Shown here: positions 14,678-19,858 of the stretch, piece by piece
Position numbering within the stretch: position 1 is the stretch's first letter
How the letters are laid out: each line of letters starts with the position of its first letter
IMG/VR virus record: IMGVR_UViG_3300012685_000001
Coordinates: 32,001 to 96,000 of that record
Reading direction: 5' to 3' (one strand)
Length of the DNA stretch: 64,000 bases
From: a virus
Translations under genes and position numbers: made by a program
The notes under the pieces: generated by a model
The model's input: only the letters and a program-made list of their open reading frames with translations
Databases searched by the model: none
What the model was told of the DNA's origin: nothing

Positions 14678-14866
14678 TTATCTCTTATCAAGAGACAAGT
14701 ACATTGCGGGGAACTTAATGCTCTGTCCGCCATCCTCATAAATAAGGATGTATTTCTTGGTGAAGAATCCCACACGTTGAATAACTGTTCCTCGACGGCC
14801 CGTAAAAGGTCCACGAGTAATAACTATAGGATCACCTATAGAGTATACAATTTCATGTTTACCCAT
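14678..14866 (-). CDS. KOW-motif protein
   Basis: IGDPIVITRGPFTGRRGTV (NusG/uL24-like KOW). Confidence 0.75.
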   Translation of the reverse strand: MGKHEIVYSIGDPIVITRGPFTGRRGTVIQRVGFFTKKYILIYEDGGQSIKFPAMYLSLDKR

Positions 14867-14883: not shown

Positions 14884-14997
14884 TTAACTAGTAGAGTAAG
14901 AACACTTAGTACACACCAATGTAGGTGACTTGCTCCCATCACCATGAACAATAGGGGCACCAGATACCAAATTATGGGGCTTTCCATCTACACACAT
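14884..14997 (-). CDS. 37-aa putative zinc-ribbon peptide
   Basis: MCVDGKPHN...VCTKCSYSTS; AAGGA SD. Confidence 0.5.
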   Translation of the reverse strand: MCVDGKPHNLVSGAPIVHGDGSKSPTLVCTKCSYSTS

Positions 14998-15028: not shown

Positions 15029-15109
15029 TGGAGCACTGGAGATTCGAACTCCAGTCTCAGCCCGTCCGACGTGCGGCTTTAAAGGCTGATCGACACCAAT
15101 TTGTGCCCC
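15029..15109 (-). ncRNA. Mini tmRNA-like RNA (tRNA-like domain only)
   Basis: GGGGCAC-AAATTGGTGTCGA-TCAGCC...GGCTGA-GAC-TGGAG-TTCGAAT-CTCCA-GTGCTCC-A: G3:U70, A73, stemless D loop ending GG..TCGA, GAC linker. Confidence 0.75.
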
Positions 15110-15116
15110 ATAGGAA

Positions 15117-15182
15117 GTACAGAAGTATGCTGCCATTACACCATACCCGGGCTGACGGAATCGAACCGTTCCTCTTCTATAC
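15117..15182 (-). ncRNA. Circularly permuted tRNA-elbow mimic
   Basis: 9-bp closing helix, with the T arm (ACGG-TTCGATT-CCGT) preceding the D arm (TGGTGTAATGGCAGCAT). Confidence 0.65.
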
Positions 15183-15186
15183 AACG

Positions 15187-15257
15187 TACCCCGTAACAGA
15201 ATCGAACTGATGTCTACGCTTTGTAAGAGCGCCGCTCTCCCATTGAGCTAACAGGGC
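15187..15257 (-). tRNA. tRNA-Val(TAC)
   Basis: GCGCT-CTTACAA-AGCGT. Confidence 0.85.
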
Positions 15258-15280: not shown

Positions 15281-15460
15281 TTATTTTCCCGGTTTCTTAT
15301 GAAACTCATCGCGCTTAACATTGCGAATCGTAACATCTTCAGAACCAGGGGTGTCATTCAGCGTAAGAGTATACTTATCACGCCTAATCGCACGAACTGT
15401 AGCAGGTCTACCCTTGTAGTGACCTCTGTCAATAACGACAACATCACCAACAATAATCAT
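15281..15460 (-). CDS. 59-aa KOW-motif protein
   Basis: Below the track cutoff; MIIVGDVVVIDRGHYKGRPATV...; AGGAG SD. Confidence 0.7.
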   Translation of the reverse strand: MIIVGDVVVIDRGHYKGRPATVRAIRRDKYTLTLNDTPGSEDVTIRNVKRDEFHKKPGK

Positions 15461-18103: not shown

Positions 18104-18150
18104 ATGTCCCGGTTCTTTCTTATAGGGGAACCGCGCTACTAAGACCCAAG

Positions 18151-18222
18151 TGGAGCTACGGGGACTCGAACCCCGAATTGAAGTATGCAAAACTTCCGTG
18201 TTACCGTTCACACTATAGCCCC
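18151..18222 (-). tRNA. tRNA-Ala(TGC)
   Basis: GAAGT-TTTGCAT-ACTTC; G3:U70. Confidence 0.9.
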
Positions 18223-18277: not shown

Positions 18278-19858
18278 TTACTTTGCAACCCAAGGCCACG
18301 TCTGTGATATTCCAGCTTCTATCAAAGGAATCATCTGGAAACCCTTGTCAGTCAGTCCACCAAAGGTGTGACGCTTCTTGGAACCAGATTCACTCTGGCC
18401 AACAGCATACCCTCCGAGGTTCCAGGTGTAGACAGGAACATTAGCAGGTACAGAAGCAACAGGATCTCCACCGTAACCATTGTACTGCTCATCAGTGATG
18501 ATCACAATACGGTCATGGTTCTTGAAGTTGCCGTTGACTGCTCCACGGGTATCAGTTCCACCCATGCTCTTGAACTTACTCAGCATAGGAAGAACAGACT
18601 GACCCTTACGGAAAGAAACTGTTTCGAAAGAAGGTCCACGCCATGCGTCACCAAACTGTACCAGATCTGCATTTTCAGCACGAAGTGCTAGTGCTGAACC
18701 AAAGATAGCAGCCGTGTCAGCTCTGTCAAGTCCCTGAGTTCCTCCGTTAGAAGTAAACATGGAACCAGAACGGTCAACCAGAACCAGTGTACGTCCCTTC
18801 AGAGAAGGCACATTGCTCAGAGAAGCCTCAAGGGCAGTCTCAAGCGCCGCAGCGATCTGAAGAGTATCCTTGTTGGCCTGGTAAGCAGCAAGGAATCGGA
18901 AAGGGAACTGCTTACTCTTGGCAACCTGCGCAGGATCAGCAAGTTTTGCAAGAACATTCTGCATCACTGGGACACTAATTCGGGCATCCTGGAAGTTCCG
19001 CAAGTTTCGAAGAAGTGCCATATATCCCATGGAAGGAATAACAGCTTCCCAGGCAACAGCATCCATAGGACCCTGAAGCCATCCGGAAAGAGCTTCCCAA
19101 GTCATTCCAGCATTCTTCATACGAGTAGCGTCCAGAAGGCCAGTAACTATTGCGCCCTTACGGTTTTCTACTGGAATACGCATTATATACTTTCGCGTAT
19201 TAATCATCTCTAGTACGCCTGGAACAATCTCTACATTTCCATAACGACTAGCAAGAGCGTACTTGAACAACTGCTCCTGAATCTCGTTATCAGGCTTAGG
19301 GTGAGTCAACTGAAGAACATCCGCGAAACGGTATCCCACAGAAGTATCGTACTTAAGAAGACTGTACTCGTTATACAACTTCTTGGCACCATCCGCAACA
19401 CCCTTCTTAAGGAAGGATGGGAAGTTCTTCCCGTACTTGGACTCGTAATAAGCCAGCACCTCACCAGGCTCATCAGCACGAGCCATAGAAGCGGCTACAA
19501 GGCCCCTAGGAGTCCCATTCAGCTGTCCTGAGTCCCAAAGGGCCTTGGCACCTTCTACACCCGCTACAATCGCCGCTGAACGCATGAAGGCAGAGTTACG
19601 AAGCCAATAGACGAAACCGGCAAACCAGAATGAATTAGTTACCGCTACTTCGGCACACAACTTGGAGAAACGGTCATCACGGCTCTTGGCGTTCTCATAG
19701 AACGTATCCTGACCGACAAAGTTGGAAACTGCTAGCAAGAACAACTCAGATTGCTTAGTGCGCACAAAACCTGCCTTGAAGTCAGCATTCAGTGCTGCCT
19801 GAGTAGTCTTGACAGGAGAAGTAGTTCCTGTCTTCTTTACCTGATTGAACTTGCCCAT
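18278..19858 (-). CDS. rsr: Ro60/Rsr TROVE-domain RNA-binding protein
   Basis: TROVE motifs (TFYE, RADE, KYD, HPKP, TWE, MGYMALLRNLRN, FPFRFL) plus a C-terminal vWA MIDAS DRSGSM...GGT...TDEQ. Confidence 0.93.
   Translation of the reverse strand: MGKFNQVKKTGTTSPVKTTQAALNADFKAGFVRTKQSELFLLAVSNFVGQDTFYENAKSRDDRFSKLCAEVAVTNSFWFAGFVYWLRNSAFMRSAAIVAGVEGAKALWDSGQLNGTPRGLVAASMARADEPGEVLAYYESKYGKNFPSFLKKGVADGAKKLYNEYSLLKYDTSVGYRFADVLQLTHPKPDNEIQEQLFKYALASRYGNVEIVPGVLEMINTRKYIMRIPVENRKGAIVTGLLDATRMKNAGMTWEALSGWLQGPMDAVAWEAVIPSMGYMALLRNLRNFQDARISVPVMQNVLAKLADPAQVAKSKQFPFRFLAAYQANKDTLQIAAALETALEASLSNVPSLKGRTLVLVDRSGSMFTSNGGTQGLDRADTAAIFGSALALRAENADLVQFGDAWRGPSFETVSFRKGQSVLPMLSKFKSMGGTDTRGAVNGNFKNHDRIVIITDEQYNGYGGDPVASVPANVPVYTWNLGGYAVGQSESGSKKRHTFGGLTDKGFQMIPLIEAGISQTWPWVAK

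What the first reader, a model, noticed from the sequence alone, without database searches (positions are those of the whole stretch)
15029..15109. 81-nt 'mini-tmRNA': tRNA-like domain without the mRNA-like domain
Seen: the gene has the hallmarks of the tmRNA TLD: 5'-GGGG, G3:U70 with A73 (AlaRS identity), a stemless D loop ending GGTGTCGA, a P2-like helix TCAGCC/GGCTGA, a 3-nt GAC linker and a perfect T arm. The ~270 nt of pseudoknots and tag frame are replaced by a ~20-nt loop. That loop reads UUUAAA-GCC-GCA-CGU-CGG-ACG-GGC-UGA (A-A-R-R-T-G-stop), possibly a vestigial tag frame, although the geometry makes decoding doubtful. Established: the TLD elbow binds SmpB, and tag-less tmRNAs are known from some protist mitochondria. 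Inference: a phage SmpB sponge or trans-translation inhibitor, or a tag-free ribosome-rescue RNA. A normal tRNA-Ala exists separately at 18151.
Basis: partly seen in the sequence, partly recalled or inferred. Interest (0 to 1): 0.88.

Follow-up and report, generated by a model that had tools for sequence, protein, structure and literature searches.

The report
Phage tag-less mini-tmRNA gene
This soil Streptomyces-type phage carries a real 81-base gene for only the alanine-accepting, tRNA-like end of the bacterial ribosome-rescue RNA (tmRNA). The type is already known from mycobacteriophage DS6A, so this is a new, unannotated member of a known but little-studied phage RNA family.

Summary
On the minus strand at 15029-15109 lies an 81-nt RNA gene with the anatomy of the tmRNA tRNA-like domain (TLD) and no pseudoknots or tag frame.

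It is a conserved gene.
- A covariance model built from nine relatives, without the window copy, scores it 51.8 bits (E 1.5e-11). The next best hit in the window is tRNA-Ala at 24.4 bits.
- Homologs follow tRNA-Val in BRock, pSt2308, GiJojo, Alone3 and five BE-cluster Streptomyces phages, and one lies in Shaeky's tRNA array. Three reach Rfam's tmRNA gathering score.
- Across 92 distinct relatives, 19 of 23 base pairs covary. G3:U70 is kept in 90 of 92.

It is not new in kind. Mycobacteriophage DS6A's 'TLD only' tmRNA (PMC4131195, PMC11915505) belongs to the same family and scores 61.6 bits on my model. This scan has also reached the same conclusion on other phage genomes.

The 'vestigial tag frame' is coincidence: 2 of 30 relatives have an in-frame stop, and the 'codons' are the stem of a small hairpin that covaries.

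The likely role is an alanine-charged, SmpB-binding competitor of host tmRNA. This is untested. BE phages also carry a full tmRNA, which argues against a plain sponge.

Verdict: new member of a known kind, interest moderate.

The parts
15029..15109 (-). Whole mini-tmRNA (TLD-only) gene, 81 nt. CCA is not encoded.
   Evidence: Model R1 gives 51.8 bits, E 1.5e-11, end to end over model positions 1-78. Sequence read.
15103..15109 (-). Acceptor stem, 5' strand (RNA 1-7), including G3 of the G3:U70 pair.
   Evidence: Pairs with 15030-15036. In relatives, G1-C72 and G2-C71 are kept in 92 of 92 and G3:U70 in 90 of 92. Pairs 4-7 covary.
15090..15102 (-). Stemless D loop, 13 nt (RNA 8-20), with the GG and UCGA elements. 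Its last G-A can form tandem G.A pairs with the G-A of the linker.
   Evidence: Aligned to the family consensus. The same layout appears in the Rfam tmRNA consensus as aligned to the pSt2308 homolog.
15083..15089 (-). P2-like helix, 5' strand (RNA 21-27).
   Evidence: Pairs with 15057-15063. All 8 model pairs of this helix covary in 92 relatives.
15064..15082 (-). Cap that replaces the pseudoknots and tag frame (RNA 28-46). It is an A-rich internal loop plus a 3-bp hairpin (RNA 34-36 with 42-44) with a 5-nt loop.
   Evidence: The hairpin pairs covary family-wide. The exact 11-nt motif is a subfamily trait, found in 23 of 83 members of a motif-independent set.
15057..15063 (-). P2-like helix, 3' strand (RNA 47-53).
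   Evidence: The stop is not conserved.
15054..15056 (-). GAC linker between P2 and the T arm (RNA 54-56).
   Evidence: The linker A is invariant and its G and C are kept in at least 90% of 30 relatives. Matches the Rfam tmRNA consensus.
15037..15053 (-). T arm (RNA 57-73): 5-bp stem and a 7-nt T loop of canonical sequence.
   Evidence: Four of the 5 stem pairs covary.
15029..15036 (-). Acceptor stem, 3' strand (RNA 74-80, including U70) and discriminator A (RNA 81, window 15029).
   Evidence: The discriminator is A in 81 of 83 motif-independent relatives.

Best explanation
What it is: a TLD-only (message-less) tmRNA gene of the mycobacteriophage DS6A type. I put this identity at about 0.9.

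How it is made (inferred): it is transcribed with the phage tRNA array, cut out by host RNase P and 3' processing enzymes, and given CCA by the host.

How it most likely works (inferred, about 0.45-0.5):
- The mature RNA of about 84 nt keeps the full alanine identity set, so host AlaRS charges it.
- It keeps the D-loop, tandem G.A, GAC-linker and T-arm surface that tmRNA presents to SmpB, so it binds host SmpB and EF-Tu.
- It therefore competes with host tmRNA for SmpB and for stalled ribosomes.
- It has no resume codon or tag frame, so nascent chains it intercepts cannot receive the degradation tag.
- The net effect is that host tagging is damped or blocked during infection.

Shown here: the anatomy, the conservation, homology to tmRNA TLDs and to DS6A, and the absence of a coding frame. 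Inferred: charging, SmpB binding, and the effect on tagging.
For: Anatomy and membership:
- Model R1, built without the window copy, scores the window copy 51.8 bits and the DS6A copy 61.6 bits.
- Homologs reach Rfam tmRNA RF00023's gathering score of 47 bits end to end, with about 300 central model positions deleted: pSt2308 52.5, BRock 64.5, Shaeky 59.3.

Selection on structure and on alanine identity:
- In 92 distinct relatives, 96.6% of cells are paired, against 67.3% in shuffles, and 19 of 23 pairs covary.
- G1-C72 and G2-C71 are kept in 92 of 92 and G3:U70 in 90 of 92, while the neighbouring acceptor pairs change freely.
- 81 of 83 members of a set found without reference to the acceptor stem have G3:U70 plus A73.

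It is not a by-product of tRNA arrays: in many contigs, and in DS6A, it is the only tRNA-like gene.

No message: 28 of 30 have no stop in the frame.

Partners must come from the host: the phage genome has no SmpB, Pth, RF-1/ArfB or CCA-adding enzyme gene.

[quoted passage not shown] 2009). PMC11915505 says the form inhibits endogenous tmRNA when expressed in E. coli.
Against: - No expression, charging or binding data exist for this copy or for any Streptomyces-phage copy.
- The window copy itself does not reach Rfam's tmRNA threshold.
- The cited experiment found inhibition whether or not the RNA could be charged. The strict conservation of G3:U70 is then not explained by titration alone.
- Five BE-cluster Streptomyces phages carry this RNA together with a complete 269-285-nt tmRNA; I read the tag frame in Riptide's. 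A pure SmpB sponge would also disable the phage's own tmRNA.
- I could not read Mao et al. 2009 itself.
Confidence: 0.5

Rival explanations
1. Tag-free ribosome rescue. The alanine-charged RNA enters stalled ribosomes with SmpB and EF-Tu and accepts the nascent chain. With no message to resume on, the peptidyl-RNA is released and hydrolysed by host factors. Ribosomes are freed without marking phage proteins for degradation.
For: - The alanine identity set is near-invariant, which a mere SmpB sponge would not need.
- It co-resides with a full tmRNA in BE phages, which suggests a distinct job.
- Message-less tmRNAs kept together with SmpB in mitochondria are thought still to help with incomplete mRNAs (PMC11915505).
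Against: - No release mechanism is known for a peptidyl-TLD in bacteria.
- The phage encodes no Pth or ArfB-type hydrolase.
- The only cited experiment on such a molecule reports inhibition of tmRNA, not rescue (PMC4131195, PMC11915505).
Confidence: 0.2
2. Decoy or ligand for another partner that recognises the acceptor/T-arm elbow of tmRNA or tRNA. Candidates are a host defence or RNA-turnover factor (RNase R, defence proteins with SmpB-like domains, RNA repair enzymes) or a phage protein. Under this reading the cap module would be the specific handle.
For: - The cap has a conserved architecture family-wide: a purine-rich internal loop plus a small covarying hairpin. The SmpB-titration model does not explain this.
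- The phage invests in several other tRNA mimics and a Ro60 gene.
- SmpB-like domains occur in predicted RNA-targeting defence systems (PMC11090510).
Against: - No protein gene is conserved next to it across the different phage types.
- Nothing links it to any particular defence system.
- The features that are conserved are exactly those of the tmRNA TLD.
Confidence: 0.1
3. Non-functional remnant: a decayed tRNA-Ala, a recently deleted ssrA, or an attP-type fragment of the host tmRNA gene.
For: - ARAGORN and Rfam do not call the window copy.
- Many actinophages do carry 3' fragments of the host tmRNA gene as attachment sites. These appear as 26-31-nt hits in mycobacteriophages, which I read as attP cores because subcluster K1 phages integrate at the tmRNA gene (PMC10865867).
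Against: - Both halves of the acceptor stem are present and covary.
- The same short form sits at the same place in distant relatives.
- It is found in about 90 distinct versions.
- This phage has direct terminal repeats, and DS6A integrates at a tRNA-Lys gene, not at ssrA (PMC10865867).
- There is no anticodon loop.
Confidence: 0.03

Closest known systems
'TLD only' (CDS-less) tmRNA of Mycobacterium phage DS6A (tmRNA Website tmID 11587; JN698994 28478-28560; PMC4131195, PMC11915505; Mao et al. 2009, not held)
   Same: - Same family. Model R1 scores DS6A 61.6 bits and the window copy 51.8 bits.
- Same length class (80 vs 81 nt).
- Same order of parts: acceptor with G3:U70 and A73, stemless D loop, short P2, small cap hairpin with almost the same motif, T arm.
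- Both are phage-borne and unannotated in GenBank.
   Different: - Different host genus and phage type. DS6A is a 60-kb temperate mycobacteriophage in which this is the sole tRNA-like gene, next to a DnaN clamp gene. The window phage is a 113-kb phage with terminal repeats, and its copy sits inside a 28-tRNA array.
- DS6A has CAC, not GAC, as linker.
Bacterial and phage full-length tmRNA (Rfam RF00023), e.g. the 269-nt tmRNA of Streptomyces phage Riptide
   Same: - The tRNA-like domain: alanine identity set, D-loop consensus, tandem G.A at the base of P2, GAC linker, T arm.
- Homologs of the window copy pass Rfam's gathering score end to end.
   Different: - No pseudoknots, no resume codon, no tag frame.
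- About 300 model positions are replaced by a cap of about 19 nt.
- The window copy itself is below Rfam's threshold.
Message-less tmRNAs of jakobid and oomycete mitochondria and of Mallomonadaceae plastids (PMC11915505)
   Same: Reduced to the tRNA-like part, with no tag reading frame. They are retained under selection together with SmpB.
   Different: They are organellar and descend from the organelle's own ssrA, where they are the only tmRNA present. The phage RNA acts in a cell that has a complete host tmRNA.
tRNA-Ala(UGC), e.g. window 18150-18222
   Same: Acceptor stem with G3:U70 and A73, and the T arm. tRNA-Ala genes are the next best hits of model R1 (24-30 bits).
   Different: No D stem, no anticodon arm and no anticodon. 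It is not called by ARAGORN or by Rfam's tRNA model.

Membership tests
TLD-only (CDS-less) phage tmRNA, DS6A type | An RNA of roughly 65-95 nt made of the tmRNA tRNA-like domain, with P2 closed by a short cap | tested here: met
   81 nt. All parts are aligned end to end to family model R1. Relatives are 69-95 nt.
TLD-only (CDS-less) phage tmRNA, DS6A type | Homology to the DS6A element | tested here: met
   One model, built from neither sequence, scores DS6A 61.6 bits and the window copy 51.8 bits. They share the cap motif.
TLD-only (CDS-less) phage tmRNA, DS6A type | No tag reading frame | tested here: met
   28 of 30 relatives have no stop in the frame. The window's stop lies in the P2 3' strand.
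TLD-only (CDS-less) phage tmRNA, DS6A type | Inhibits host tmRNA / binds SmpB | not testable with these tools
   Known only from the literature, for a similar molecule in E. coli (PMC4131195, PMC11915505).
tmRNA (Rfam RF00023, functional trans-translation RNA) | Alanine identity: G3:U70 with discriminator A73 | tested here: met
   Present in the window copy. Kept in 90 of 92 relatives.
tmRNA (Rfam RF00023, functional trans-translation RNA) | Score at or above Rfam's gathering threshold (47 bits) | tested here: not met
   The window copy has no RF00023 hit reported. Homologs do pass: 52.5, 64.5 and 59.3 bits.
tmRNA (Rfam RF00023, functional trans-translation RNA) | mRNA-like domain with a resume codon and an in-frame stop, plus pseudoknots | tested here: not met
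   Only a cap of about 19 nt lies between the P2 strands. The frame is not conserved.
tmRNA (Rfam RF00023, functional trans-translation RNA) | Alanylation by AlaRS and delivery by SmpB/EF-Tu | not testable with these tools
   Inferred from the conserved identity elements only.
Canonical tRNA-Ala | Cloverleaf with a D stem and an anticodon arm carrying a 7-nt loop | tested here: not met
   No ARAGORN call and no RF00005 hit. No consistent 7-nt loop in the relatives.
Bacterial Y RNA (YrlA type) partner of the nearby Ro60 gene | The 5' and 3' ends form a Ro-binding helix, and the tRNA-like module is internal and permuted | tested here: not met
The ends form the acceptor stem, and no Rfam Y RNA hit was found. 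Relatives occur in many phages where I saw no Ro60 gene.

The most novel reading that the evidence does not exclude
The family is not just an SmpB sponge. The alanine identity set is near-invariant in about 90 variants, the cap module is conserved, and BE-cluster phages keep this RNA alongside a complete phage tmRNA. On that basis it may be a charged, ribosome-active RNA that carries out a message-less form of trans-translation (add one alanine, then release). That would be a tag-free rescue route that phages use to keep ribosomes free without condemning their own proteins.
Probability: 0.2. Interest if true: 0.75.

Novelty: new member of a known kind. Interest (0 to 1): 0.45.

Why it matters
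Trans-translation is the main ribosome-rescue and protein-tagging system of bacteria and a drug target.

A natural, widespread, phage-made RNA that keeps only the SmpB- and AlaRS-facing end of tmRNA is a ready-made probe of that system. It is also a likely case of a virus interfering with host translation quality control.

Standard tools (ARAGORN, Rfam thresholds) and GenBank records miss these genes. One record has a protein gene annotated over the RNA. Phage RNA gene counts are therefore systematically short.

This particular copy adds little that is new. The type and its proposed role are published, and this scan has met the family before. What would matter is the unanswered question of why alanine identity is so strictly kept, and why some phages carry both the short and the full form.

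Tried and rejected
Y RNA idea. A Ro60-like gene lies 3 kb away, and a permuted tRNA-like 'elbow' sits directly 5' of the element. I first thought the two small RNAs formed a Y RNA. I dropped this for three reasons:
- The element's ends form an acceptor stem.
- The elbow is absent in pSt2308 and GiJojo, which keep the mini-tmRNA.

Tag frame. Tested and rejected.

Cap motif as a universal signature. My first relative set was selected with that motif, so its invariance was circular. A motif-independent scan shows it in only 23 of 83 members.

Resemblances of the cap motif recalled from memory (to 16S rRNA helix 45, to the 3' part of mycobacterial tmRNA, to the first pseudoknot of E. coli tmRNA). 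I did not test these and they are not used.

Search for a conserved partner protein next to the gene. None was found. The recurring 'ORFs' were translations of the RNA itself, and the real neighbours differ between phage types: a DnaB-like helicase or a DnaN clamp in the phages without tRNA arrays, tRNA genes elsewhere.

Bacterial genomes. One pattern hit in 185,579 species, which is the 3' end of a normal Pseudomonas ssrA and not a mini form.

Expression. No RNA holder is listed among public runs, so I did not lay reads.

BLAST of the window copy against phage records found no match. Relatives were reached by synteny, patterns and the covariance model.

Consensus promoter and terminator scans near the gene gave counts at chance level for promoters and found no terminator at the gene's 3' end.

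Mao et al. 2009 could not be read.

Full report
1. What is in the sequence

The feature lies on the minus strand at 15029-15109. Read 5' to 3' it has:
- a 7-bp acceptor stem with G1-C72, G2-C71, G3:U70 and an A discriminator;
- a 13-nt D loop with no stem, ending in the UCGA element;
- a 7-bp helix in the place of tmRNA helix P2;
- a cap of about 19 nt;
- the return strand of P2;
- a GAC linker;
- a 5-bp T stem with a canonical T loop.

The G-A at the end of the D loop and the G-A of the linker can form the tandem G.A pairs that the Rfam tmRNA consensus has at the base of P2. CCA is not encoded, and tRNA-Val next door does not encode it either.

ARAGORN tRNAs in the window but not this gene. 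No Rfam family reaches its threshold. With relaxed thresholds only tRNA-Sec appears, at 23.9 bits against a gathering score of 47.

2. Setting

The window is bases 32001-96000 of a 113,467-bp virus record with direct terminal repeats.

Its Ro60-like protein (18278-19858, minus strand) is 62-64% identical to those of Streptomyces phages BRock, pSt2308, GiJojo, Alone3 and LuckySocke. These phages share the same order of tRNA genes.

The gene lies inside the tRNA array, on the same strand. The order is tRNA-Val (15186-15257), a 77-nt spacer that holds a permuted 'elbow' RNA, the mini-tmRNA, then small ORFs and two tRNA-Ser genes. No consensus promoter or terminator of its own was found. Co-transcription with the array and processing by tRNA enzymes is therefore the simplest reading, but it is inferred.

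3. It is a conserved gene

The same short form follows tRNA-Val in:
- BRock (L001:1421-1498, minus strand);
- pSt2308 (L002:13949-14026);
- GiJojo (L003:13998-14075);
- Alone3 (L004:14009-14085).

I built covariance model R1 from nine 78-nt relatives, leaving the window copy out. R1 scores the window copy 51.8 bits, E 1.5e-11, end to end. The next best hit in the window is tRNA-Ala(UGC) at 24.4 bits.

Rfam's tmRNA model RF00023 has a gathering score of 47 bits. It matches three homologs end to end, with about 300 central positions deleted:
- pSt2308, 52.5 bits;
- BRock, 64.5 bits;
- Shaeky, 59.3 bits.

The family is thus homologous to the tmRNA tRNA-like domain by Rfam's own criterion. The window copy itself is too diverged to pass.

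4. Size of the family, and what is conserved

A pattern built on the cap motif found 38 viral contigs. That set is biased towards the motif.

A second pattern used only the D-loop end, the linker and the T arm.

I aligned 92 distinct members to the model:
- 96.6% of cells form standard pairs, against 67.3% in shuffles and about 40-52% with slid partners.
- 19 of 23 pairs show changes on both sides.
- G1-C72 and G2-C71 are kept in 92 of 92 and G3:U70 in 90 of 92, while acceptor pairs 4-7 change freely.

RNAalifold predicts the acceptor, P2 and T helices on its own.

Many contigs, and DS6A, carry the gene as their only tRNA-like gene. It is therefore not debris of tRNA arrays.

A scan of one genome from each of 185,579 bacterial and archaeal species found only the 3' end of an ordinary Pseudomonas ssrA. 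The short form with this cap motif is therefore phage-borne as far as that scan shows.

5. The cap and the supposed tag frame

In the window the cap can be read as six codons ending in UGA. Of 30 relatives, only 2 have any stop in that frame, and the window's UGA is part of the P2 return strand.

In the motif-independent set, the 'codons' are one strand of a 3-4-bp hairpin that covaries between members. The hairpin is flanked by a purine-rich internal loop.

So there is no message. The cap is a structured module with a conserved architecture. The exact 11-nt motif of the window copy is a subfamily trait (23 of 83). What the cap does is unexplained.

6. What is already known

Hudson, Lau and Williams (2014, PMC4131195) list 'Mycobacterium phage DS6A (TLD only)'. 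[quoted passage not shown] They add that a similar molecule, chargeable or not, strongly inhibits tmRNA, perhaps by titrating SmpB, citing Mao et al. 2009.

The 2025 tmRNA database paper (PMC11915505) groups it with message-less tmRNAs of mitochondria and of two plastids. It says the form inhibits endogenous tmRNA when expressed in E. coli.

I located the DS6A copy at JN698994 28478-28560. It scores 43.2 bits on RF00023 and 61.6 bits on my family model, and it carries nearly the same cap motif. The window gene and the DS6A gene are therefore members of one family.

Follow-up reports of this scan on other phage genomes reached the same conclusion. I had found the DS6A papers before reading those notes.

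None of the GenBank records I looked at annotates the gene. GiJojo has a protein gene drawn over it. The BE1 phage papers count a single tmRNA (PMC5764925).

7. A point that complicates the simple model

Five BE-cluster Streptomyces phages each carry the short form about 100-110 nt after tRNA-Val: Riptide, NootNoot, EGole, Tomas and Jay2Jay.

Each also carries a complete 269-285-nt tmRNA about 10 kb away, scoring 93-104 bits on RF00023. I read the tag frame in Riptide's copy, where it ends in a normal degradation signal.

The two forms have different acceptor stems, so the short one is not a recent copy of the long one.

A pure SmpB sponge would disable the phage's own tmRNA as well. The cited experiment found inhibition with or without charging, which leaves the strict conservation of the alanine identity set unexplained. 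Both facts suggest that the charged state matters in nature.

8. Mechanism

Most likely (about 0.5):
- The RNA is processed like a tRNA, receives CCA from the host and is charged by host AlaRS.
- It binds host SmpB and EF-Tu and competes with host tmRNA at stalled ribosomes.
- Because it has no message, the degradation tag cannot be added.

All partners must be host-encoded. The phage genome has no SmpB, peptidyl-tRNA hydrolase, RF-1/ArfB-type factor or CCA-adding enzyme.

Rivals:
- True tag-free rescue, about 0.2.
- A decoy or handle for another factor that reads the tmRNA/tRNA elbow or the cap, about 0.1.
- A non-functional remnant, about 0.03, contradicted by the covariation.

No expression data could be found.

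9. Verdict

- It is wrong about a vestigial tag frame and about novelty.
- This is a new, unannotated member of a known kind.
- Interest is moderate. The open questions concern the family as a whole, not this copy: why charging is conserved, what the cap does, and why some phages keep both forms.

Noticed in passing
window 15117-15182 (minus strand): A permuted tRNA-like 'elbow' RNA lies between tRNA-Val and the mini-tmRNA. A 9-bp closing stem encloses a T-arm-like and a D-arm-like hairpin. BRock has it too, with compensatory changes in the stem. pSt2308 and GiJojo lack it, so it is independent of the mini-tmRNA. Another note of this scan already covers it.
   Followed up: partly
L051:1477-1553; L070:1501-1578; L071:1501-1577; W05 (MK494112) 87963-88039; W07 (KM652554) 87505-87581; full tmRNA e.g. 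L053:1501-1769: BE-cluster Streptomyces phages (Riptide, Tomas, NootNoot, EGole, Jay2Jay) carry both an unannotated mini-tmRNA after tRNA-Val and a complete 269-285-nt tmRNA. Published descriptions count one tmRNA.
   Followed up: yes
L003:13996-14238 (GiJojo gp44); L001:1235-1315 (BRock gp175): Likely annotation errors. GiJojo's hypothetical protein gp44 starts 2 nt before the mini-tmRNA and runs across it. BRock's 'tRNA-Cys' is annotated on the strand opposite to the tRNA array, where ARAGORN calls a tRNA-Arg(tcg) on the array strand.
   Followed up: no
L136:5-81 and L136:1317-1392: One viral contig carries two mini-tmRNA copies about 1.3 kb apart (45.6 and 49.0 bits on model R1).
   Followed up: no
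L063:1481-1529 (Synechococcus phage S-SSM7); L062:1478-1529 (S-CAM1): T4-like cyanophages have sequences of about 50 nt consisting of an acceptor stem and T arm (27-31 bits on model R1). Their T arm is almost identical to that of some mini-tmRNAs, but they lack G3:U70. They are unannotated or lie under hypothetical proteins. They may be a different, smaller tRNA-like RNA.
   Followed up: no
L004:13876-14004 (Alone3): Between tRNA-Val and the mini-tmRNA, Alone3 has a tRNA-like sequence of about 130 nt. It has a normal-looking 5' part and T arm but a long insertion in the middle. It is not annotated.
   Followed up: no
window 14884-14997, 14678-14866, 15281-15460 (minus strand): Small ORFs flank the RNA genes. 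A 37-aa Cys-containing ORF with a ribosome-binding site starts 31 nt after the mini-tmRNA. Two ORFs of about 60 aa give weak KOW-motif hits (E about 0.004, below Pfam's cut-off).
   Followed up: partly
window 18278-19858 (minus strand): A Ro60-like RNA-binding protein gene lies inside the tRNA array. It is 62-64% identical to those of BRock-like Streptomyces phages. DS6A, the other phage with a known TLD-only tmRNA, encodes an RtcB-like RNA ligase.
   Followed up: no
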